This document shows, in pieces, positions 1 to 8,475 of a stretch of 8,475 nucleotides of DNA. The translations under genes and the position numbers were made by a program. The DNA is from a virus. Its lineage: Duplodnaviria; Heunggongvirae; Uroviricota; Caudoviricetes. The notes beneath the pieces are model-generated. The model had not been told where the DNA came from, did not search any database, and worked only from the letters and a program-made list of their open reading frames with translations. The number at the start of each line of letters is the position of its first letter. Within the stretch, counting starts at the first letter, position 1. The stretch lies in the IMG/VR virus record IMGVR_UViG_2648501235_000008. One strand, given 5' to 3'.

Positions 1-112
1 AGTCGCTGTCGTTCTCAAAATCGGTGGAGCTGCATGACAAAGTCATCGGGCATTATCTGAACATAAAACACTATCAATAAGTTGGAGTCATTACCCAAAA
101 CTTAAAAATGGA

Positions 113-1444
113 ATGCAGAAATACATTGATATTTCTCTTTGTTTGAATTTGGCTTTGTTAGATTTAAATGTCATTTTAGGTGATAAAGAGCCACAAAATA
201 GAGCTTTGGAAGGTTTGAAATCTTTAATTAAACAGTCCGATGGAATGTCTGTTCTAATTGAAAGATTTAGAAGCAGTAATTTGATTCGTCATAATCTAGT
301 GTCTTGGCCTTTAGCTAACTATACTAAATATAAAGGAGATCTTACTGAGGAGAATTTATACAGTAAGATGCATGGTATTCCACTTGATAATGATAAATTA
401 AATAAAACCCCTAGATATATTCATGCTGATGAAAAGCAGCTTTTCGATTTGATTGATGCTCTTCATACAAGAAAACTACATAAGTTTACGCATGAAAATA
501 AGCATCACTTAAAAAATTGCTCTGTTACTAAGATAAAAGATAATAAAGCTCTTGAAATAAAGGTAGGAATTGATGATAGAAGTGGTAATGACACAATAAA
601 AGTTGCGTTGGCAAATATGAGAGTTGAACGTCGTAATATTGAAAGTGCTTGCAGAAAAGATCAGTCTCCAAATTTAAGTTATGAACGACAAAGAAACCTT
701 TATCGTATTCTCAACTCGGCAACTGAAGAAAATGTGCAGATATTACTACTCCCTGAGTTATCAATTCCTGTGTCGTGGTTACCTTTTATGGCAGCACATT
801 CAAGGAGAAAACAAATATCTTTGATTTTCGGATTAGAGCATTGGGTTATTAACGAACGCGCATATAATATTTTGGTTGAAATGCTGCCTTATACTTCAAA
901 CTTTAAACACAAATCCAGTATGTTAGTTTTTCGAGTGAAAAATCATTACGCACCTAGTGAGATTACGATGCTGAATTCTTTAAGGTTAAAAATATCCTCT
1001 CCTAAACCTAGTAAACAACGGTATCATTTGATTAAGTGGAAAAACGTATCATTTTCTACATACAACTGTTTTGAACTGGCTAATATCGAGCATAGAGCAT
1101 TATTTCGTTCGCAGTTGGATATTTTATTTGCTTGCGTATGGAATCAAGATATAAATTATTATCAACATATCACTGAGTCAGCGACACGGGATTTACATTG
1201 TTATGTGGCTCAATCAAATACTTCGCATTATGGCGGTTCTTGTGTTCTACAACCGACCAGTAGCACTATTTCAAATAAGATATATGTAAAAGGTGGGGAA
1301 AACCATTGCATCCTAACTACTACTTTAAATATATATGCATTGAGAGAGGCTCAATATCGTTCATTCAGAATTAACTCCGATACTATTAAACACAATCCTC
1401 CAGGGTTTGACTATAATGCTCTATTAGAGCGAGGTGAGAAATGA
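113..1444 (+). CDS. Hypothetical 443-aa protein: unassigned N-terminal region (about aa 1-190) plus C-terminal carbon-nitrogen hydrolase (nitrilase-superfamily)-like domain; candidate defense effector
   Basis: Long ORF in the only AT-rich stretch of the window. Manual motif reading: hydrophobic strand then LLLPE (E215, nt 755-757); ISLIFG strand; FRVKNHYAPSE (K276 nt 938-940, E283 nt 959-961); FSTYNCFE (C319 nt 1067-1069); DILFACVWN; YVAQSN...GGSCVLQP. Order and spacing fit the nitrilase-superfamily E-K-E-C tetrad. No convincing SD before ATG 113, so the start is uncertain. Stop overlaps the next start (ATGA at 1441-1444). Confidence 0.7.
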   Translation: MQKYIDISLCLNLALLDLNVILGDKEPQNRALEGLKSLIKQSDGMSVLIERFRSSNLIRHNLVSWPLANYTKYKGDLTEENLYSKMHGIPLDNDKLNKTPRYIHADEKQLFDLIDALHTRKLHKFTHENKHHLKNCSVTKIKDNKALEIKVGIDDRSGNDTIKVALANMRVERRNIESACRKDQSPNLSYERQRNLYRILNSATEENVQILLLPELSIPVSWLPFMAAHSRRKQISLIFGLEHWVINERAYNILVEMLPYTSNFKHKSSMLVFRVKNHYAPSEITMLNSLRLKISSPKPSKQRYHLIKWKNVSFSTYNCFELANIEHRALFRSQLDILFACVWNQDINYYQHITESATRDLHCYVAQSNTSHYGGSCVLQPTSSTISNKIYVKGGENHCILTTTLNIYALREAQYRSFRINSDTIKHNPPGFDYNALLERGEK

Positions 1445-2130
1445 GTAGCTTTTGGGAAGGTATTTTGTCATCAAGCATTTCATTTGCAATTATTGGATTT
1501 GTTTGTAAGGCTTTTTTACAACATATTGATAAAAGAGAGTTAGAATCATTTAAAAATAAGTTGAAATATGAAAGTGAACAGAGAATTAAAGAGGATGAAC
1601 GTGCTTATAATTTTAAAAAAGCAAGAGATCTTGAAATCGGACGTTGGGGGTTAACATTACTTAGTGCTGCAAATGGTTTTTTAGGAAGGCTATGTTATAT
1701 TAAAGATCACAATGACCTATCGTCGGATCAATATTATATTGATAGTACAAGATTCTATCTATGCCAATATTTTTGCTGGGTACATCAATTCAGGAAAAAT
1801 AGAGATTCATCTGTATTTTCACCAACTAATGATGAAATGTTAATAACTGAATTAATCAAAAATATTTCTATAGCCCTACGAGAGAACGATATTGGTTTTC
1901 CTTGTATTAGATCTCTTGAACAAAAGTATATAGGTGAAAGCCTTAGCATTGGTGCTGAATGTATGTCCTATAAAGATTTTATCGATTCTAAAGTATTAGA
2001 AAACTATGCACCTCTAAATGATTTTGTTGAAGCAATTCTACAAAATAATAATAAAGATTATATCGATAAACTCGTTATCCCATTCCAAGATCTCAAGACC
2101 AGATTTGATGCGGCATTACAAAATAAATGA
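1441..2130 (+). CDS. Hypothetical 229-aa protein with N-terminal hydrophobic membrane-anchor-like segment; operon partner of the upstream gene
   Basis: ATG at 1441 overlaps the upstream TGA (ATGA). Good SD GAGG at 1431-1434, 6 nt before the ATG. Residues about 6-27 (WEGILSSSISFAIIGFVCKAFL) are hydrophobic, followed by a charged, probably helical region. Same AT-rich composition as the upstream gene. No recognisable catalytic motif. Confidence 0.65.
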   Translation: MSSFWEGILSSSISFAIIGFVCKAFLQHIDKRELESFKNKLKYESEQRIKEDERAYNFKKARDLEIGRWGLTLLSAANGFLGRLCYIKDHNDLSSDQYYIDSTRFYLCQYFCWVHQFRKNRDSSVFSPTNDEMLITELIKNISIALRENDIGFPCIRSLEQKYIGESLSIGAECMSYKDFIDSKVLENYAPLNDFVEAILQNNNKDYIDKLVIPFQDLKTRFDAALQNK

Positions 2131-2148
2131 TTTTTTTACCTGCGCGCA

Positions 2149-2167
2149 ATGCTCTCCCCGCCTCGCC
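2149..2167. other. cos cohesive-end core of P2/P4 type
   Basis: Minus strand of 2149-2167 reads GGCGAGGCGGGGAGAGCAT, 17 of 19 identical to the P2/P4 cohesive end GGCGAGGCGGGGAAAGCAC as I recall it. It sits just beyond the psu stop, where P4 carries cos. Confidence 0.55.
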
Positions 2168-2190
2168 CGCCCGCTTTGCGGGGCGGTTTT
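2165..2190 (+). terminator. GC-rich bulged hairpin followed by TTTT, terminator-like, overlapping the cos region
   Basis: gcccgcccgc-ttt-gcggggcgg then tttt (2187-2190), 35 nt after the ORF2 stop. The stem has one bulge. It may instead be part of the cos recognition region. Confidence 0.3.
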
Positions 2191-2212
2191 AATGCAGTTG
2201 CACTGACACGCT

Positions 2213-2270: not shown

Positions 2271-2301
2271 GCCATGCACCTTATCGATGCATGGCTTTTT
2301 T
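2271..2301 (+). terminator. Rho-independent terminator between the convergent cargo operon and psu
   Basis: Stem gccatgca (2271-2278), 9-nt loop, tgcatggc (2288-2295), then TTTTTT (2296-2301). An A-run upstream (2268-2270) gives partial bidirectional character. Confidence 0.5.
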
Positions 2302-2331
2302 CAGTAAAAACAGGCGGATTTTCGGGGAATT

Positions 2332-2904
2332 TTACACAGACTGACGTGATGCCAGTTGCGCACTTTTACGCGAAAAAATCATGTTCTGCGCAGGGGTGAA
2401 TTTTTCACGGCTGTCATCCACCGAAGCCGCGTCAGGCCTGAATCCGATGGTCGTTAAAATGTCGCTATCCTGTGCGGAATAATTAATTTTTTCACCCTTC
2501 GCAAGCCAGGACAGGAGGGCTTCACGCAGGGCATCTGTGGCACGCTGTATGGCACAGTTTCGGGCAATGGCCGTCAGCTCACTGTAGCCCATCAGCTCCG
2601 GTGCCAGTGCCGCCGCCAGTGCTGTGCCGTGCTGCTGCATAAAATCATTCAGCCGGTCGCGGATGCTGATGTGCTGAACGGCTTCATGCGAACGAATATA
2701 ACGACCGGCAGCCTGATTCACCTGCCATTTTCTGACTTCGATAATATTGCGTAATTCGTCCAGGCGACTGACGTTTCTTCCTTCCCCTGACAGAAGCCGC
2801 AGATATTCCTGTTCGGCCGCAGCCAGCTCATTTTTGCGTTGCAGCCATGCTGCTTTGTTATTCTGACAGGTGTCAAAGGCCTGCTGTAAGGCTGTGCTTT
2901 CCAT
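2332..2904 (-). CDS. psu: Psu, polarity suppression / capsid decoration protein of P4-like satellite
   Basis: 190-aa ORF, the length of P4 Psu. N-terminus MESTALQQAFDTCQNNKAAWLQRKNELAAAEQEYL matches Psu as I recall it. Last gene of a sid-delta-psu arrangement. Confidence 0.9.
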   Translation of the reverse strand: MESTALQQAFDTCQNNKAAWLQRKNELAAAEQEYLRLLSGEGRNVSRLDELRNIIEVRKWQVNQAAGRYIRSHEAVQHISIRDRLNDFMQQHGTALAAALAPELMGYSELTAIARNCAIQRATDALREALLSWLAKGEKINYSAQDSDILTTIGFRPDAASVDDSREKFTPAQNMIFSRKSAQLASRQSV

Positions 2905-2977
2905 CGTTATCTCTTTCTCATCATGCTGAAGAATAAAAATACGGTGTGCGGCGACGGCCGGTGTTAACCGGCAGCCC

Positions 2978-3478
2978 TCATTCCAGACGCAGCGAATATG
3001 ATTGTGTTTTTAAGCGTACTGGCGGCAGTTCCTGTTTTTCATGCAGGCTTTCTGCCAGTTCGTCCGGCGTGACCGGGCGGACAATAAAACGGTTGATGGT
3101 CTGAAGCGTTTTAAACACCAGACCACATCCCGGATCCGTGCACACATAAAAACGCTCGGTGACTTCCTGAGACAGACGCCGCGATGTTCTTGACAGTGCA
3201 AGGCCTTTACATCTCCGACAACAATATCCGGTAACAAGCATTCTTTTCGGGCGTTTCATACTGCCGGAGGCTGACGTCAGTGAATCGCGGTATCTCTGTT
3301 TGCCTGAAATGTATTCCATTCCTGAATCTTTACTGTCAGAGAAAAAGCTTTCACTCGCTTCAAATGTCGCAGAGCAATAAATATTCCGGCACTGTGCAAT
3401 CATTATCTTGGTGCCATCGTCCATGAAATGTGCGCGGCGGGTGTGAGCAACATGTCCACACGACGGGCAGTAAATCAT
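2978..3478 (-). CDS. delta: Delta, late-gene transcriptional activator with tandem Ogr-type zinc-finger repeats
   Basis: 166 aa with two Cys-rich Ogr-like repeats (CPSCG...C...YC and CCRRC...C...GC). Start overlaps the sid stop (ATGA at 3475-3478). Confidence 0.9.
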   Translation of the reverse strand: MIYCPSCGHVAHTRRAHFMDDGTKIMIAQCRNIYCSATFEASESFFSDSKDSGMEYISGKQRYRDSLTSASGSMKRPKRMLVTGYCCRRCKGLALSRTSRRLSQEVTERFYVCTDPGCGLVFKTLQTINRFIVRPVTPDELAESLHEKQELPPVRLKTQSYSLRLE

Positions 3479-4209
3479 GACAGCAGTCCTCTGGCCTTAA
3501 GCACTGCTCCCTGCTGGTCTATTTTGTCCTGCCACACCTTGCGCTGTGCCGGTGTGCCTGCCACCTCATAATCCATGTGAGGAAGTGTTGCCGCTGACAG
3601 TCCGGTCAGCCGGAGAACCGGCTCGCCGGTGAGGCTGATTTGCATCTGTTTAATTTTCTGTTCCAGCGATGATTTCACCTGCTGCATGACAGCCTTTTCC
3701 GGTGCGACGTAGCCCTGATGGCCGGTGGTGTTGGCGAGCGGATTTTCCTGTACCAGAATGCTCAGATGCATTGCCCGGACAAGCGCCTCACAGGTTTCAT
3801 TCAGGGCGTGTTCCAGCTCATGCTCTGCATACAGACTCAGAAGGTGATGATGTGCCTTCCGGTAGGCGGTGGCCGTGCTGTCACACGCCCCTTTCAGGCG
3901 TTCACGTTCGAAATTCAGCACCACGGCCAGATTGTCATATTCCTGTACCAGCTCCCGGCGTGCCACGCGCTCAATGTGGCGCTGTTTCAGCTCGTCGCTC
4001 AGGACACCACCGGCTGCACGAAAGGCCGTGCGCCAGTCGTCAGCGTCGTTTCCGTCGGCCTGCGCCAGCGCATTTTTTTCCTGCTCTGCCCGTTCAATGG
4101 CCGTGACGGTCTCATCCATCAGTCGGGCGTTCTCAAGGTGGGCGGCTCTGGCCTTTTCCAGTTGTGCCAGTGCGGGTTGCAGATATTCAGGGATGGTGTT
4201 GTCAGACAT
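3475..4209 (-). CDS. sid: Sid, external capsid size-determination scaffold protein
   Basis: The track ORF runs to 4275, but the internal ATG at 4207-4209 has a strong SD (GAGGAG, complement of 4217-4222, 7-nt spacing) and gives 244 aa beginning MSDNTIPEYLQPALAQL. Helical, Q/E/A/L-rich. Position upstream of delta fits P4. Confidence 0.85.
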   Translation of the reverse strand: MSDNTIPEYLQPALAQLEKARAAHLENARLMDETVTAIERAEQEKNALAQADGNDADDWRTAFRAAGGVLSDELKQRHIERVARRELVQEYDNLAVVLNFERERLKGACDSTATAYRKAHHHLLSLYAEHELEHALNETCEALVRAMHLSILVQENPLANTTGHQGYVAPEKAVMQQVKSSLEQKIKQMQISLTGEPVLRLTGLSAATLPHMDYEVAGTPAQRKVWQDKIDQQGAVLKARGLLS

Positions 4210-4243
4210 TTTCCGGCTCCTCGTCACTTCAGGTTGAGAAAAT

Positions 4244-4299
4244 TGTGACGTACACCGGACAACAACACGACGCATTGCAGATGTGCCAGCCCTGACACA
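4244..4299. promoter_or_regulatory. Divergent late-promoter region with two TGT-N12-ACA dyads (Ogr/Delta-type activator sites)
   Basis: TGT-gacgtacaccgg-ACA at 4244-4261 (right half extends to ACAACAACA) and TGTG-ccagccctga-CACA at 4282-4299. They lie 35-90 bp upstream of the sid start on the minus strand. Confidence 0.45.
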
Positions 4300-4379
4300 G
4301 GAGACTCATCCTCACACCGGCAAGCCAGGAAAAGGTCGCTGGAAAAAACGGCTTACTGTTTATTTTTTTTATATTTTAC

Positions 4380-4483
4380 TGTTCACCTCTGTTCACCATA
4401 AGAAAAAAGATAAGTAATACAGTAAGTTAAAGGGTGAACAATCGCAGTAATGACTGTTCACCGTCTGTTCACCACTGTTCACC
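4380..4483. repeat. TGTTCACC octamer iteron cluster, P4 ori-type (alpha-protein binding sites)
   Basis: Direct TGTTCACC at 4380-4387, 4390-4397, 4455-4462, 4466-4473 and 4476-4483; inverted copy GGTGAACA at 4433-4440. An AT-rich tract (about 4355-4378) is adjacent. The octamer matches the P4 ori/crr type I iteron as I recall it. Confidence 0.6.
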
Positions 4484-4587
4484 CGTTGATGGGCTTTTTG
4501 TGCTGTTTATTACTGTTTGTTTTTATTAATTCGCCGGGAATGAATAAGAAAAAACGATTTGTATTTCACTATAAAAATTACGAATTG

Positions 4588-4617
4588 CTTTAAGTGGCTT
4601 TAAATGACTTTAAGTGG
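4588..4617 (+). repeat. Three tandem 10-bp repeats upstream of vis
   Basis: CTTTAAGTGG (4588-4597), CTTTAAATGA (4598-4607), CTTTAAGTGG (4608-4617). Candidate regulator binding array; function not determinable from sequence. Confidence 0.5.
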
Positions 4618-4762
4618 AGATGAACAAAAAATACACAAGCATTGTAAGGCTGCCGGAACAAATCCCCCCTGTTGCGTCTGCTGAAAATATTCACAAAATA
4701 AAGCGCTACCCGAAGCCGGACGGACTTATCCGGTGCTGTATGGACATTAACGAGGTAGCCCG

Positions 4763-5029
4763 ATGCAAGCTGTTTTTTCTTCCCCGTCTCCCGCCCCTGT
4801 GACGCCACTGATGCCGCTGCCGGACATCACACAGGAGCGTTTTTTACGTCTTCCGGAAGTGATGCACCTGTGCGGCCTGTCACGCTCGACCATCTATGAA
4901 CTCATCCGTAAGGGGGAATTTCCGCCGCAGGTGAGTCTTGGCGGTAAAAATGTGGCCTGGCTGCACTCTGAAGTCACCGCATGGATGGCCGGGCGCATTG
5001 CCGGACGCAAACGGGGGTACGACGCATGA
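4763..5029 (+). CDS. vis: Vis / AlpA-family helix-turn-helix DNA-binding regulator
   Basis: 88 aa, the length of P4 Vis (orf88). Core [30 protein letters not shown] is a typical AlpA-family HTH. SD GAGG at 4751-4754, 7 nt before the ATG. Confidence 0.85.
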
Positions 5030-5625
5030 TGATGCCCGCTCTGCAAAAACTCCCTTTTTCTGGCTTGCCTTTTTCCGGCATTTGCGGATATAGTTTTTCC
5101 GCTGTCGCAAAATCGGCAGCCGGGCGTGGAAACCCGAGCAATCTAACGGCGACATATGACGCGCCATGCGTCTTTTTTTGTGTCGCAATCAACGCCACAG
5201 AGCGCCAGATTATGGTGTGGTGTGTGGTCAGTCGAGCAGATGGCACTCCGTGCATCCTGCCCGCGTCCGCTCATTATGCCGCAGAGTCAATGGTAGCTCA
5301 GGCGGGGCAGCCTCCGGGCTGGCCGGTATCCGTTAGAGCCGGTATTTCCACCCCCGTCTGGGCTATCGCCATCGAGCGTGGAAACTCCGGCGATAGCGTA
5401 ACCTGCTATCTAACGGAGGCTGCCATCATGGCTACAACCCTTACCCCTTCACACCCTGAATTTGTCTTTGTGTTTGCGGCTGTCCGTCGCGCAGACCGTC
5501 ATCCCCGTATCTGCATGCTTCGCACCGTCGCCGGTGATGAACGCAGTGCCCGCCGTTCCCTTGTCCGTGACTATGTGCTCTCCCTTGCTGCCCGTCTGCC
5601 GGTGGTGGAGGTGTCCCGTGCGTAA
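5026..5625 (+). CDS. 199-codon ORF spanning the immunity region (P4 orf199-like); translation uncertain
   Basis: ATGATGATG at 5026-5034 overlaps the vis stop (ATGA). The length equals P4 orf199 from memory. Composition is weakly protein-like and the frame covers the seqA/B/C-like RNA elements, so it may not be translated as a whole. Confidence 0.3.
5065..5094 (+). promoter_or_regulatory. Candidate sigma70 promoter, PLE-like
   Basis: TTGCCT (5065-5070), 18-nt spacer, TATAGT (5089-5094). Lies just downstream of vis and upstream of the seqA-like element. Confidence 0.3.
5124..5416 (+). ncRNA. Immunity-type region with seqA / seqB / seqC-like elements; candidate cI-type regulatory RNA locus
   Basis: Direct copies of GCGTGGAAAC (5124-5133, 5376-5385) and ATCTAACGG (5141-5149, 5408-5416). 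Between them, 5330-5353 (ccgttagagccggtatttccaccc) is the inverted complement of both blocks (CCGTTAGA / TTTCCAC). A 9-bp hairpin (5362-5370 / 5389-5397) encloses the second GCGTGGAAAC. Precise RNA ends cannot be set from sequence. Confidence 0.4.
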
Positions 5626-5905
5626 TAAAAAAGCCCCTCAGACCGTCTCAGCGCGTCATGACGCCCGTGAACACCTCAGCATTGAGGCTTACCATAAGCT
5701 CAACCGCGCCAGCGCCGTATCCCAGTTTGTTGGGGGTGATTTGATTCACCGTGAACTCTCCGGCCTGCATCAGCTCTACATTCCGCATATTTTCAGCTAC
5801 CTGAATGAAGATATTGATTTTGTGCTGAATGAGCTGAAAGCCAAAGGCCTGTGCCGCGATTTTCTCGCCCAGCAGAAAGACCGGGGAGACAGGACGCATG
5901 TTTGA
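5618..5905 (+). CDS. 95-aa protein in the position of P4 epsilon (derepression protein); identity not established
   Basis: GTG start at 5618 with SD GGAGG (5607-5611, 6-nt spacing). The 52 codons upstream in the track ORF (from 5462) are not protein-like and overlap the preceding ORF. The 3' end overlaps the next start. Confidence 0.45.
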
Positions 5906-6353
5906 TTTTCCCCAGCCCGGTGAGATTTACCGTTCTGCCGGTTTTCCCGATGTGGCCGTGGTCGGCATTCTGGAAGACGGTATTCCGTGGGAAATGCCGT
6001 ACCGCTGTCCGGACATTGTCTGGAACCCGTACCGCCGAAAATTCAGTATCCTTGTGCGTATCCTCACTGACGGGCGCACCACAGACATCCCGCTGGGGCG
6101 TTTTCTGCGGGAATTTACCTGTGACCGTCCTGACCTGTTCAAACGCAGCCCCGTAAACCGGCATGCGGTACTGAAAGAAATGGCCGGAGACCCGGAATTA
6201 CAGAAATGGCGGGAGAAATATCTGGATATTTACCCGCAGGACACTGTTCCGGCCAGCCGGGCGGCACCGGTGGCGCGGGAATGGCGGGAAATTCCCCGCA
6301 CGGAGCCTGACCCGGAAATCACCCCGGATAACAGTTACCGCAATTATCTGTAA
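5898..6353 (+). CDS. 151-aa protein, P4 orf151-like
   Basis: Length equals P4 orf151 from memory. Protein-like composition, same strand and operon as alpha. Start overlaps the upstream stop. Confidence 0.6.
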   Translation: MFDFPQPGEIYRSAGFPDVAVVGILEDGIPWEMPYRCPDIVWNPYRRKFSILVRILTDGRTTDIPLGRFLREFTCDRPDLFKRSPVNRHAVLKEMAGDPELQKWREKYLDIYPQDTVPASRAAPVAREWREIPRTEPDPEITPDNSYRNYL

Positions 6354-6488
6354 TTAAAAAACGACACCCGAAAAATTAAATGTGCGTATTCGCGCAGGGA
6401 TACGCACGTCTTCAGGAGACGCAGATATGCCTTATCAGTTAATGCAACCGGCACGGAATGCAGTCATCTGTCACAGGGAGGAAAACAA

Positions 6489-6809
6489 ATGAAAACACCC
6501 TTACCGCCCGTCTTACGCGCTGCCCTTTACCGTCGCGCTGTCGCCTGTGCCTGGCTGACCGTGTGCGAACGTCAGCACCGCTACCCGCATCTCACCCTTG
6601 AATCACTGGAGGCGGCCATCGCCGCTGAGCTGGAGGGCTTTTATCTGCGCCAGCACGGTGAGGAAAAAGGGCGTCAGATAGCCTGTGCCCTGCTGGAAGA
6701 TTTAATGGAATCCGGCCCCCTGAAGGCCGCGCCGTCGCTGTCCTTTCTCGGGCTGGTTGTGATGGATGAACTCTGTGCCCGTCACATAAAAGCGCCGGTA
6801 CTGCACTGA
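6489..6809 (+). CDS. 106-aa hypothetical protein immediately upstream of alpha
   Basis: Strong SD GGGAGG (6475-6480, 7-nt spacing). Stop lies 14 nt before the alpha start. Confidence 0.55.
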
Positions 6810-6823
6810 AGGAGAACAACACC

Positions 6824-8379
6824 ATGAAAATGAACGTAACCGCCACCGTCAGCCATGCGCTCGGCCACTGGCCGCGTATTCTCCCGGCGCTGGGGATTCA
6901 GGTGCTGAAGAACCGTCATCAGCCCTGTCCGGTCTGTGGCGGGAGTGACCGTTTCCGTTTTGATGACAGGGAGGGGCGCGGCACCTGGTACTGCAATCAG
7001 TGTGGTGCCGGTGACGGCCTGAAACTGGTTGAAAAGGTGTTTGGTGTTTCCCCGTCCGATGCGGCCGCAAAGGTGGCTGCCGTGACCGGCAGCCTGCCCC
7101 CTGCTGACCCGGCAGTGACGGCTGCCGCCGGTGCTGAAACAGACGCTGCCCGGAAGAACGCCGCCGCACTGGCACAAACCCTGATGGCGAAAACCCGTCC
7201 CGGAACCGGTAACGCCTACCTGACCCGCAAGGGCTTTCCCGGCCGGGAATGCCGGATGCTGACCGGCACACACAGAGCCGGTGGCGTGAGCTGGCGTGCC
7301 GGTGACCTTGTGGTGCCACTGTATGACGACAGCGGCGAACTGGTTAACCTTCAGTTAATCAGTGCTGACGGCCGTAAGCGCACCCTGAAAGGCGGACAGG
7401 TCAGGGGCACCTGTCACACCCTTGAAGGACAGAATCAGGCCGGAAAACGTCTGTGGATAGCGGAGGGATACGCGACCGCACTTACCGTGCATCACCTGAC
7501 CGGTGAAACGGTGATGGTGGCGCTTTCTTCCGTGAATCTCCTTTCTCTGGCCAGCCTTGCCCGGCAGAAGCATCCGGCCTGTCAGATTGTCCTTGCTGCT
7601 GACCGTGACCTCAGCGGTGACGGCCAGAAAAAAGCCGCCGCAGCCGCAGGTGCGTGTGAAGGTGTTGTTGCCCTGCCGCCGGTCTTCGGTGACTGGAATG
7701 ATGCCTTCACGCAGTACGGCGGGGAAGCCACCCGTAAGGCCATTTATGATGCCATCCGGCCACCGGCTGAAAGCCCGTTCGACACCATGAGCGAAGCGGA
7801 GTTTTCCGCCATGAGTACCAGCGAAAAGGCCATGCGTATCTATGAGCATTACGGCGAGGCGCTCGCGGTCGATGCCAACGGCCAGCTTCTGTCCCGCTAT
7901 GAAAATGGTGTCTGGAAGGTGCTGCCGCCACAGGACTTTGCCCGGGATGTGGCCGGGCTGTTTCAGCGGCTGCGCGCGCCGTTCTCCTCCGGGAAGGTGG
8001 CCTCCGTGGTGGACACCCTGAAGCTGATTATTCCGCAGCAGGAAGCCCCCTCCCGCCGCCTGATTGGCTTTCGTAACGGCGTGCTCGACACGCAGAACGG
8101 CACGTTCCACCCGCACAGTCCGTCACACTGGATGCGCACCCTGTGCGATGTGGATTTCACCCCGCCGGTGGACGGTGAAACGCTGGAGACCCACGCCCCC
8201 GCGTTCTGGCGCTGGCTTGACCGTGCCGCCGGTGGCCGTGCGGAAAAACGCGACGTGATTCTGGCCGCACTGTTTATGGTGCTGGCAAACCGCTACGACT
8301 GGCAGCTCTTTCTGGAGGTGACCGGTCCCGGCGGCAGCGGCAAAAGTATCATGGCCGAAATCGCCACCCTGCTGGCCGG
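6824..8379 (+). CDS. alpha: Alpha primase-helicase (zinc-ribbon, TOPRIM primase, D5-like helicase with Walker A); 3' part absent or interrupted
   Basis: SD GGAG at 6811-6814. N-terminal zinc motif CPVCGGSDRF...WYCNQCG; TOPRIM-like LWIAEGYATALTV and VLAADRD; Walker A GPGGSGKS at 8327-8346. The frame stays open to 8475, but the expected helicase-like character is lost after 8379. Not in the ORF track because no stop occurs in the window. Confidence 0.85.
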
Positions 8380-8475
8380 CTGTCTCTTATACACAAATCC
8401 CCACCCGGGGATTTGTGATGTCTGTCAGTCTGCTTTAGGGGGACTCTTTCCATCCGGTAGTTTCCTTCCTCCCCG
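8380..8475. mobile_element. Putative terminus of an IS4-family (IS50-like) insertion sequence
   Basis: CTGTCTCTTATACACA at 8380-8395 is identical to the first 16 nt of the Tn5 mosaic end and 15 of 16 to the IS50 outside end, from memory. It is followed by a perfect palindrome cacaaatcccc-acc-ggggatttgtg. The junction coincides with the loss of alpha coding character. Confidence 0.35.

What the first reader, a model, noticed from the sequence alone, without database searches (positions are those of the whole stretch)
113..1444. ORF1 carries a nitrilase-superfamily E-K-E-C signature behind an unassigned N-terminal region
Read by eye, the C-terminal ~250 aa follow the CN-hydrolase pattern in order and spacing: strand + LLLPE (E215), ISLIFG strand, FRVKNHY..E (K276, E283), YNCFE (C319), DILFACVWN, YVAQSN and GGSCVLQP. 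The first ~190 aa have no motif I can assign. CN hydrolases cleave non-peptide C-N bonds or act as N-acyltransferases, an enzymology not commonly reported for phage-defense effectors. A membrane partner raises the possibility of action on a membrane or cell-envelope substrate, or on a nucleotide/amide metabolite.
Basis: inference. Interest (0 to 1): 0.75.

Follow-up and report, generated by a model that had tools for sequence, protein, structure and literature searches.

The report
IS1-truncated known RT-nitrilase defence gene
ORF1 does carry a real nitrilase-type catalytic domain, but it is only the back half of an already described and tested E. coli anti-phage gene (reverse transcriptase fused to a nitrilase, plus a membrane protein) that an IS1 insertion has cut in two, so it is a broken copy of a known system.

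Summary
ORF1 residues ~160-443 form a nitrilase-superfamily domain, and E215/K276/E283/C319 are invariant in homologues. They align to E1017/K1077/E1084/C1116 of the solved DRT1 structure.

The interpretation needs correcting. ORF1 is not a complete gene. Window 1-95 is the right end of IS1. From base 95 the sequence is 100% identical to codons 510-958 of a 958-aa "RT-nitrilase" gene that is intact in other E. coli. The ATG at 113 is internal Met516 of that protein. The "unassigned" first ~190 aa are the helical/connector region between the RT and nitrilase domains.

ORF2 is 100% identical to the 1-TM partner of the "RT-nitrilase + 1TM" system (UG5-large, class 3 UG/Abi RT). Rousset et al. 2022 cloned that system from the psu-int hotspot of a P4-like satellite in E. 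coli E101 and showed it defends against phage. The window is such a satellite: psu, delta, sid, alpA, CI/C4 RNA and primase are all present.

Nitrilase domains in RT-linked defence have been known since 2020-2022, and their mechanism was partly worked out in 2026. Without its RT half (YVDD at 298-301 of the intact protein), this copy is most likely inactive.

Already known; low interest.

The parts
1..95 (+). Right end of an IS1 element. It holds the last 25 codons of InsB (frame 3, [25 protein letters not shown], stop at 78-80) and the terminal inverted repeat ending ...GTCATTACC at 95. Base 95 (C) could belong to either IS1 or the target gene. The contig starts inside IS1.
   Evidence: Identical base for base to the end of an annotated IS1A in L003 up to TACC, after which the two diverge. 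The IS1 piece matches thousands of E. coli records. Translation.
95..1444 (+). 3' remnant (codons 510-958 plus stop) of the UG5-large RT-nitrilase gene. The RT half (codons 1-509, including YVDD 298-301) is absent from the window.
   Evidence: 100% DNA identity over 95-2200 to intact-length copies in E. coli M19 and others. Window 95 corresponds to gene nt 1528. PADLOC model positions 516-958 of 958 are matched.
113..589 (+). ORF1 residues 1-159. It corresponds to residues 516-674 of the intact protein. Predicted helices span 2-132, followed by a small beta unit at 136-151. The ATG at 113 is internal Met516, not a native start.
   Evidence: BLASTP 442/443 identical to residues 516-958. Secondary structure from the AF2 model. 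Residues 40-129 match the C-terminal tail of the PADLOC RT_UG5_small model. No Shine-Dalgarno-like motif at a usable distance before 113 (sequence).
590..1441 (+). Nitrilase (CN-hydrolase) domain, ORF1 residues ~160-443. Catalytic-tetrad codons: E215 at 755-757, K276 at 938-940, E283 at 959-961, C319 at 1067-1069. The conserved CxE glutamate E321 is at 1073-1075.
   Evidence: Foldseek hits to nitrilase-superfamily structures. Invariant residues. Alignment to DRT1 E1017/K1077/E1084/C1116. Rousset Table S3 HHpred gives CN_hydrolase 99.7% at residues 678-929 of the full protein.
1441..2130 (+). Partner gene: a 229-aa protein with one N-terminal transmembrane helix (about residues 7-26). Its start overlaps the ORF1 stop (ATGA). 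It has its own GAGG Shine-Dalgarno at 1431-1434.
   Evidence: PADLOC RTasTM 5.2e-164 over the full length. 100% identical to protein 2 of the validated pFR76 system. Hydropathy peak 1.94 at residues 8-26. The exact sequence is seen on 884 contigs.
2149..2186 (.). P4 cos-like core (2149-2167 on the minus strand, 2 mismatches to GGCGAGGCGGGGAAAGCAC) and a GC-rich hairpin followed by a T run (2167-2186). Together they mark the conserved end of the variable hotspot.
   Evidence: Rousset et al. state that hotspot cargo lies next to cos.
2332..2904 (-). psu (polarity suppression protein), one boundary of the P4 psu-int defence hotspot. The rest of the window is P4-like satellite backbone: delta 2978-3478, sid 3475-4209, alpA 4763-5029, primase 6824-8475 (cut by the contig end).
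   Evidence: Pfam families on the called genes. RefSeq annotation of the collinear locus L001.

Best explanation
The window is a complete short contig (JHTL01000062.1, E. coli) from a P4-like phage satellite. Its psu-int defence hotspot carries the known two-gene system 'RT-nitrilase + 1TM' (UG5-large, class 3 UG/Abi reverse transcriptase).

An IS1 element sits in the first gene at codon 510 of 958.

How the intact system works (inferred from relatives). The RT domain makes short untemplated DNA covalently primed on the protein itself. That DNA controls assembly and the activity of the nitrilase domain. On infection, the nitrilase (Glu-Lys-Glu-Cys centre, substrate unknown) and the single-pass membrane partner cause abortive infection.

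Why this copy is probably dead. Both the RT and the nitrilase active sites are required in the relatives that have been tested. This copy lacks the RT half on the same polypeptide, the native promoter and a usable ribosome-binding site. It is most likely a non-functional pseudogene remnant. The TM gene keeps its own ribosome-binding site, so it could still be made if IS1 read-through transcription occurs.

Basis of each step. Shown here: the IS1 junction, identity to the intact gene and to the validated system, the nitrilase fold and the conserved tetrad. Taken from papers: the defence phenotype and the biochemical mechanism of relatives. Inferred: loss of function of this copy.
For: Truncation by IS1:
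- PADLOC RT_UG5-nitrilase scores 1069 bits but covers only model positions 516-958 of 958.
- ORF1 is 442/443 identical to residues 516-958 of the 958-aa WP_024228187.1.
- Window 1-95 is identical to an IS1A right end. From 95 on it is identical to the intact gene, with the junction at gene nt 1528, codon 510.
- The window is the whole contig, and the 443-aa product is recorded on that one contig only, inside a cluster whose full-length member is 958 aa.

Identity with the validated system:
- ORF2 equals pFR76 protein 2 (229/229). The intact allele equals the first 399 aa shown for pFR76 protein 1.
- Rousset 2022 report defence from this system, measured at room temperature.
- Mestre 2022 classify it as UG5-large and state that the TM protein is needed.

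P4 context: psu, Ogr/Delta, AlpA, Ash and primase; C4 and isrK RNAs; cos-like site.

Nitrilase domain.

Mechanism of relatives:
- In DRT1, RT-dead and C1116A mutants lose defence. DRT1, DRT5S and DRT5L make protein-primed, untemplated DNA.
- In DRT11 (UG5-large), both catalytic domains are essential. Its K833-C876-E878 spacing equals K276-C319-E321 here.

Expression signals: no promoter-like site and no Shine-Dalgarno before the ATG at 113.
Against: - Only 95 bases of IS1 are visible, because the contig begins inside it. I cannot show that the 5' half of the gene lies on the other side (simple insertion) rather than having been deleted or rearranged.
- Loss of function is inferred, not tested.
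- A naturally split architecture exists (UG5-small, with RT and nitrilase in separate ORFs). In principle the two halves might therefore complement each other if both were expressed.
- I take 'DRT5L' in the DRT1 paper to mean UG5-large. The passages I read do not define it.
- The mechanism has been demonstrated for DRT1 (UG1), a sister family, not for this E. coli protein.
Confidence: 0.93

Rival explanations
1. ORF1 is a genuine stand-alone nitrilase gene with its own N-terminal domain. With the membrane protein it would form an RT-independent two-gene effector pair, comparable to the separate nitrilase ORF of UG5-small systems.
For: PADLOC RTasNitrilase, the stand-alone nitrilase of UG5-small (397 positions), matches ORF1 residues 159-433 at 5e-35. 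Split or fragmented homologues occur elsewhere: Psychrobacter has 648 aa + 358 aa ORFs, and a Snodgrassella-like contig has several fragments. ORF2 keeps its own Shine-Dalgarno.
Against: - The DNA from base 95 is 100% identical to the interior of a 958-codon gene, and the ATG at 113 is its Met516.
- An IS1 end abuts the ORF, with no promoter or Shine-Dalgarno in between.
- The cut falls inside the helical region. ORF1 residues 40-129 belong to the RT protein in the UG5-small model, so this is not the natural split point.
- The exact 443-aa product is on a single contig.
- RT activity is required in the tested relatives.
Confidence: 0.03
2. The IS1/gene junction is an assembly artefact of a short-read draft. 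The RT-nitrilase gene would then be intact in the real genome.
For: The window is a whole 8.5-kb contig that starts inside a multicopy IS1. E. coli genomes hold a median of about 10 places matching the query, almost all of them IS1 copies. Repeats are where draft assemblies go wrong.
Against: - IS1 ends exactly at its terminal inverted repeat base, and the gene sequence resumes with no foreign bases. That is the signature of transposition rather than a chimeric join.
- Assemblers normally break contigs at repeats rather than fuse them.
- Complete genomes show independent IS1 insertions in the same gene at nt 305 and nt 1808, each a 777-bp insert (768-bp IS1 plus 9-bp duplication). The gene is therefore a proven IS1 target.
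Confidence: 0.03
3. The E-K-E-C motifs are chance matches in an AT-rich protein, and there is no nitrilase fold.
For: Pfam CN_hydrolase is below its gathering threshold for this sequence alone (12.8 bits against 23.2, E=0.077). Sequence-only profile hits to canonical nitrilases in the PDB are not significant (E about 1).
Against: A confident model gives exclusively nitrilase-superfamily fold matches. The four residues are invariant in 21 homologues. There is a significant alignment to the DRT1 nitrilase, including its essential Cys. Ten of 21 homologues hit CN_hydrolase. Published HHpred gives 99.7%.
Confidence: 0.005

Closest known systems
'RT-nitrilase + 1TM' system of E. coli E101 (plasmid pFR76; Rousset et al. 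2022, Cell Host Microbe, PMC9122126), classified as UG5-large, class 3 UG/Abi RT (Mestre et al. 2022, PMC9226505)
   Same: Same locus type: the P4-like satellite hotspot next to psu and cos. The TM protein is 100% identical. The nitrilase half is 442/443 identical to an allele whose first 399 aa equal pFR76 protein 1. Same gene order, with the ATGA overlap.
   Different: Here the first gene is interrupted by IS1 at codon 510. The RT domain, the native start and the promoter are not attached, so this is probably a dead copy.
DRT11, the UG5-large RT-nitrilase of Sinorhizobium meliloti RMO17 (PMC13436386)
   Same: RT, connector and C-terminal nitrilase in one polypeptide of ~1,000 aa. The spacing K833-C876-E878 matches K276-C319-E321. 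Both catalytic domains are needed for an abortive-infection-like defence.
   Different: DRT11 has no TM partner and does not need one. It is plasmid-borne in a rhizobium and is intact.
DRT type 1 (UG1; PDB 9YFD; Gao et al. 2020; Neville et al. 2026, PMC13275509)
   Same: Class 3 UG/Abi RT fused to a nitrilase. The tetrad aligns residue for residue: E1017/K1077/E1084/C1116 against E215/K276/E283/C319, profile E=1.7e-11. A TM partner (drt1b) is found in a minority of loci. Protein-primed, untemplated DNA synthesis is reported for the class 3 enzymes tested.
   Different: Different RT clade (stated). The protein is longer (1,229 aa). The PADLOC Drt1a match is weak (37.6 bits) against 1069 bits for UG5-large. 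It is a relative, not the same family.
UG5-small: RT plus a separate nitrilase ORF (cluster 249; PADLOC RT_UG5_small + RTasNitrilase)
   Same: The nitrilase is a separate polypeptide of ~400 aa. The truncated ORF1 superficially resembles it (5e-35).
   Different: The natural split point differs: ORF1 residues 40-129 belong to the RT protein in UG5-small. UG5-small has no TM partner. ORF1 is a truncation product of a UG5-large gene.
Canonical nitrilase-superfamily enzymes (Nit2, aliphatic amidases, N-carbamoyl amidohydrolases, Lnt)
   Same: Same fold (TM 0.66-0.70 on the target). Same placement of the E, K, E and C residues at strand ends and helix starts.
   Different: Only 10-16% identity. 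The domain is fused to an RT in its native form. Substrate unknown. Defence role rather than metabolic role.

Membership tests
Nitrilase (CN-hydrolase) superfamily | Alpha-beta-beta-alpha sandwich fold | tested here: met
   AF2 model pLDDT 85.8. The 50 listed Foldseek PDB hits are all nitrilase-superfamily members, best E=2e-11, TM 0.66-0.70 on the target; 65 matches in all have E <= 0.001.
Nitrilase (CN-hydrolase) superfamily | Conserved Glu-Lys-Cys triad with a second Glu (E-K-E-C) | tested here: met
   E215, K276, E283 and C319 are invariant in 21 homologues. They align to E1017/K1077/E1084/C1116 of DRT1. E215 aligns with the PE glutamate of PH0642 and of the Synechocystis nitrilase in weak alignments. 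3D convergence of the side chains could not be measured because no coordinates are returned.
Nitrilase (CN-hydrolase) superfamily | Pfam PF00795 score at or above the gathering threshold | tested here: not met
   12.8 bits against 23.2 for ORF1 alone. Ten of 21 homologues match at E<=0.1, best 4.2e-6. This is a divergent clade, as Mestre 2022 also notes.
Nitrilase (CN-hydrolase) superfamily | C-N bond hydrolysis or acyl-transfer activity | not testable with these tools
   The substrate is unknown even for the solved DRT1 (Discussion).
UG5-large 'RT-nitrilase + 1TM' defence system (class 3 UG/Abi RT) | RT domain with a YxDD active site on the same polypeptide | tested here: not met
   Absent from the window. 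ORF1 covers only model positions 516-958. YVDD lies at 298-301 of the intact allele, upstream of the IS1 cut at codon 510. The locus is therefore a truncated member, not a functional one.
UG5-large 'RT-nitrilase + 1TM' defence system (class 3 UG/Abi RT) | C-terminal fused nitrilase domain of the UG5 clade | tested here: met
   PADLOC RT_UG5-nitrilase E=0, 1069 bits. 442/443 identity to the intact protein.
UG5-large 'RT-nitrilase + 1TM' defence system (class 3 UG/Abi RT) | Downstream single-TM partner protein | tested here: met
   PADLOC RTasTM 5.2e-164. 229/229 identical to pFR76 protein 2. One hydrophobic helix at about residues 7-26.
UG5-large 'RT-nitrilase + 1TM' defence system (class 3 UG/Abi RT) | Anti-phage phenotype | not testable with these tools
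   Published for the intact E101 system. Unknown for this interrupted copy.
P4-like satellite psu-int defence hotspot | Cargo lies between psu/cos and int of a P4-like element | tested here: inconclusive
   The psu side, the cos-like site and the P4 backbone are present. The int side is beyond IS1 and outside the contig. In the collinear loci L001 and L002, int lies directly upstream of the RT gene.
DRT type 1 (UG1) | RT of the UG1 clade; ~1,200-1,300 aa protein | tested here: not met
   The Drt1a model scores only 37.6 bits, against 1069 for UG5-large. The intact protein is 958 aa. Rousset et al. place the RT in a different clade.
UG5-small stand-alone nitrilase (cluster 249) | Nitrilase natively encoded as its own ORF after a ~630-aa RT, with no TM partner | tested here: not met
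   ORF1 is the interior of a fused gene. A TM partner is present. ORF1 residues 40-129 match the RT_UG5_small tail.
IS1 | InsB 3' end and terminal inverted repeat, ending exactly at the junction | tested here: met
   Window 1-95 is identical to an annotated IS1A end. The 9-bp target duplication cannot be checked because the left junction is not in the window.

The most novel reading that the evidence does not exclude
The most novel reading not excluded concerns repeated disruption of this gene. The three mapped IS1 sites are this window (nt 1528), FDAARGOS_943 (nt 305) and AF14 (nt 1808). The hit table also points to an ISEc60 interruption in FDAARGOS_944, which I did not map, and M19 carries a W174* nonsense mutation. 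This could reflect selection against a costly or autoimmune system rather than IS1's taste for AT-rich DNA. The leftover nitrilase-plus-TM module could then retain some RT-independent activity, either toxic or protective, driven by IS1 read-through transcription.
Probability: 0.06. Interest if true: 0.4.

Novelty: already known. Interest (0 to 1): 0.1.

Why it matters
It matters little beyond correct annotation. The nitrilase call is right, but the gene, its membrane partner, its location in the P4 satellite hotspot and its anti-phage role are all published, and this copy is a truncated one.

The real open question is what the nitrilase of class 3 defence RTs hydrolyses and what the TM partner does. 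That question belongs to the intact system and is not advanced by this window.

There are two practical lessons:
- ORFs that begin just after a contig edge or an IS end should be checked for truncation before an "unknown N-terminal domain" is proposed.
- Counts of defence systems should flag this locus as disrupted.

Tried and rejected
1. **Pfam and NCBIfam on ORF1 and ORF2.** Pfam gave only a sub-threshold CN_hydrolase hit, and NCBIfam gave nothing. These libraries do not cover this divergent clade. PADLOC settled the question.

2. **Sequence-only PDB searches for canonical nitrilases.** With the full protein and two family profiles, only DRT1 (9yfd) was significant. Hits to PH0642 and the Synechocystis nitrilase had E about 1. 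In the PH0642 alignment the Lys region is aligned to K121 rather than to the YRK motif eight residues earlier. I therefore did not use it for residue mapping beyond the PE glutamate.

3. **Direct measurement of the four side chains in the model.** This was not possible. The sandbox holds no coordinates, and fold search returns no residue maps.

4. **My first label, 'DRT type 1'.** I rejected it. The RT is UG5, not UG1.

5. **Looking for an identical IS1 junction in 5,426 complete E. coli genomes.** None was found. All full-coverage hits joined IS1 copies located elsewhere.

6. **Context of P0007.** The look-up found nothing on record. P0012 and P0018 showed fragmented or split homologues, which I take as probable pseudogenes. 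I did not resolve this.

7. **Promoter scan upstream of ORF1.** Nothing lies within the 112 bases available.
Full report
**What is in the window.** The window has a sharp compositional break. Bases 1-2100 are 30-35% G+C and the rest is 50-64%.

The AT-rich part holds two overlapping + strand ORFs:
- 1441..2130, 229 aa, ORF2.

The rest is the backbone of a P4-like phage satellite:
- psu (2332-2904, -), Ogr/Delta (2978-3478, -) and sid (3475-4209, -).
- An AlpA-type regulator (4763-5029), Ash, a derepression protein and DUF5375.
- A primase cut by the contig end.
- Rfam C4 antisense RNA (5286-5373) and isrK (5101-5178).
- A cos-like core at 2149-2167.

An exact look-up shows that the window is an entire 8,475-bp contig, JHTL01000062.1 of assembly GCA_001266445.1. 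NCBI names the ORF1 product as an E. coli hypothetical protein, WP_249436714.1, seen on this one contig only.

**Checking the observation.** Several independent results confirm the nitrilase assignment:
- PADLOC models containing the nitrilase of defence reverse transcriptases match strongly: RT_UG5-nitrilase E=0, 1069 bits; RTasNitrilase 5e-35; Drt1a 1.5e-10.
- An AlphaFold2 model built on 21 homologues is confident (pLDDT 85.8, pTM 0.87). E215 follows a strand. K276 ends a strand. E283 starts a helix. C319 sits at a strand-helix elbow.
- Foldseek against the PDB returns only nitrilase-superfamily structures among the hits listed: Nit2 2w1v at 2e-11, Nesterenkonia, P. horikoshii and G. pallidus amidases, carbamoylases and Lnt. 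TM-scores are 0.66-0.70 on the target.
- E215, K276, E283 and C319, and also E321, are invariant across 21 homologues of 34-53% identity.
- A profile of the domain aligns to the solved DRT1 chain 9yfd at E=1.7e-11. It pairs the four residues with E1017, K1077, E1084 and C1116.
- C1116A abolishes DRT1 immunity (PMC13275509).
- The K833-C876-E878 centre described for the UG5-large protein DRT11 has the same spacing as K276-C319-E321 here (PMC13436386).

Pfam CN_hydrolase alone is sub-threshold (12.8 bits against 23.2). This fits a divergent clade, and 10 of 21 homologues do hit it. The one thing I could not do is measure the 3D convergence of the side chains, because no coordinates are exposed.

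**What ORF1 really is.** The best PADLOC model is 958 positions long, and ORF1 matches only positions 516-958.

In other E. coli genomes the same DNA lies inside a 2,877-nt gene annotated "RNA-directed DNA polymerase". Window 95-2200 is 100% identical to it in a single piece. That gene sits between the P4-type integrase (next to tRNA-Leu) and the 229-aa gene and psu. ORF1 is 442/443 identical to residues 516-958 of the intact 958-aa product. Its ATG is therefore internal Met516.

Upstream, window 1-95 is identical to the right end of an annotated IS1A. It carries the last 25 InsB codons and the terminal repeat ending GTCATTACC. After that point the IS1 copy in L003 and the window diverge, while the window becomes identical to the intact gene. 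The junction is at gene nt 1528, codon 510.

No start codon precedes 113 in frame. No Shine-Dalgarno motif lies at a working distance, and no promoter-like site lies in the 112 bases available.

The "unassigned first ~190 aa" are the distal part of the helical region and a small beta connector between RT and nitrilase. Residues 40-129 match the tail of the UG5-small RT model. The RT active site, YVDD 298-301, lies upstream of the cut.

**Identity with a published system.** Rousset et al. 2022 (PMC9122126) described the psu-int locus of P4-like satellites as a hotspot of anti-phage systems. They cloned an "RT-nitrilase + 1TM" system from E. coli E101 (pFR76) and found that it defends, measured at room temperature.
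- Their Table S2A prints the proteins. ORF2 is 229/229 identical to protein 2.
- The intact allele I used equals the 399 aa printed for protein 1.
- Their HHpred table puts CN_hydrolase (99.7%) at residues 678-929 and RVT_1 at 99-337.
- Mestre et al. 2022 (PMC9226505) classify this system as UG5-large, class 3 UG/Abi RT. They state that the TM protein (cluster 1858) is needed.

It is related to, but not the same as, DRT type 1 (UG1). Rousset et al. note a different RT clade, and the Drt1a model scores only 37.6 bits here.

**How it most likely works.** For the intact system I rely on relatives.
- In DRT1, both the RT (D324N/D325N) and the nitrilase (C1116A) are required.
- The purified class 3 enzymes DRT1, DRT5S and DRT5L make DNA without template, covalently primed on the protein. 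I read DRT5S and DRT5L as UG5-small and UG5-large; the passages I saw do not define them.
- In DRT1 the DNA adducts drive tetramer and filament assembly and hold the nitrilase in a dormant, primed state. Defence is abortive.
- The nitrilase substrate is unknown, and the authors suggest an essential amine or amide metabolite.
- In DRT11 (UG5-large), both catalytic domains are again essential and no TM protein is needed.

The E. coli system adds a single-pass membrane protein. ORF2 has one hydrophobic helix at about residues 7-26. Its start overlaps the stop of the first gene (ATGA), and it has its own GAGG ribosome-binding site.

By inference, the copy in this window is inactive. It has lost the RT domain from the polypeptide, along with the native promoter and start.

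**Rivals.**
- A native stand-alone nitrilase (UG5-small-like) is excluded by the identity to the interior of the fused gene and by the IS1 end. The cut is also not at the natural split point.
- An assembly artefact is unlikely. IS1 ends exactly at its terminal base. Complete genomes show independent IS1 insertions in the same gene, each a 777-bp insert. It cannot be ruled out from this contig alone.
- Chance motifs are refuted.

**Population context.** The system occurs in 33 of 5,426 complete E. coli genomes, always on the chromosome. Several copies are damaged:
- IS1A at nt 305 plus a frameshift (FDAARGOS_943).
- IS1A in the opposite orientation at nt 1808, splitting the gene into ORFs of 603 and 358 aa (AF14). 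The match in E1739 ends at nt 1803.
- An IS4-like ISEc60 annotated under a two-piece match (FDAARGOS_944). I did not map that insertion.
- A W174* nonsense codon in M19.

The window's allele shares the R764 variant with M19 (ORF1 R249), so it may belong to that lineage.

**Verdict.** The feature is an IS1-truncated copy of an already known and experimentally validated defence system. Novelty: already known. Interest: low.

Noticed in passing
L003 (FDAARGOS_943), L008 (AF14), L001 (M19); hit table: The same RT-nitrilase gene is damaged repeatedly and independently in other E. coli. IS1A sits at gene nt 305. IS1A in the opposite orientation sits at nt 1808 (777-bp inserts), and the E1739 match ends at nt 1803. 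In FDAARGOS_944 an IS4-like ISEc60 is annotated under a two-piece match, which I did not map. M19 has a W174* nonsense codon. Only 33 of 5,426 complete genomes carry the system. This could reflect IS1's preference for AT-rich DNA (the gene is 31% G+C) or a fitness cost of the system. A 2026 survey reports that defence pseudogenes are rare in P4 hotspots (PMC13586616).
   Followed up: partly
window 857-859 (ORF1 R249, R764 of the full protein): The window's allele is 100% identical over 95-2200 to the M19-type allele, which carries R764 and an upstream W174* stop. The intact E1316 allele has H764. The gene in this strain may therefore already have been inactive before IS1 inserted. The upstream part is not in the window.
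   Followed up: partly
window 5101-5178 (+) and 5286-5373 (+): Rfam matches above the gathering score to isrK Hfq-binding RNA (72.5 bits) and C4 antisense RNA (76.2 bits). These correspond to the P4 immunity-region RNAs and lie inside the long mechanical ORF 4981-5625 / the Ash-family gene.
   Followed up: no
window 2149-2186: A P4 cos-like core (2 mismatches, minus strand) lies immediately next to a 6-bp all-GC hairpin followed by a T-rich tail (TTTTAATGCA). Both sit in the 200-bp gap between the TM gene and psu.
   Followed up: no
L007 3067-6077 (Psychrobacter sp. ER1, CP184640.1) and L005 3201-6110 (Logan SRR26941946): Homologues at ~50% identity appear as split or fragmented ORFs. In Psychrobacter a 648-aa RT ORF overlaps a 358-aa nitrilase ORF by 13 nt, inside a type I R-M / Mrr / KAP NTPase defence island. 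On a Snodgrassella-like contig there are fragments of 199, 291 and 369 aa. These may be frameshifted pseudogenes or natural two-ORF variants; I did not resolve which.
   Followed up: partly
window 1-2100 versus 2300-8475: G+C jumps from 0.30-0.35 in the defence cargo to 0.50-0.64 in the satellite backbone. This fits cargo acquired from a different, AT-rich source.
   Followed up: no
window 6824-8475: The P4 alpha-type primase-helicase gene runs off the right end of the contig (551 codons present). Both contig ends therefore cut genes, and the satellite is only partly represented.
   Followed up: no
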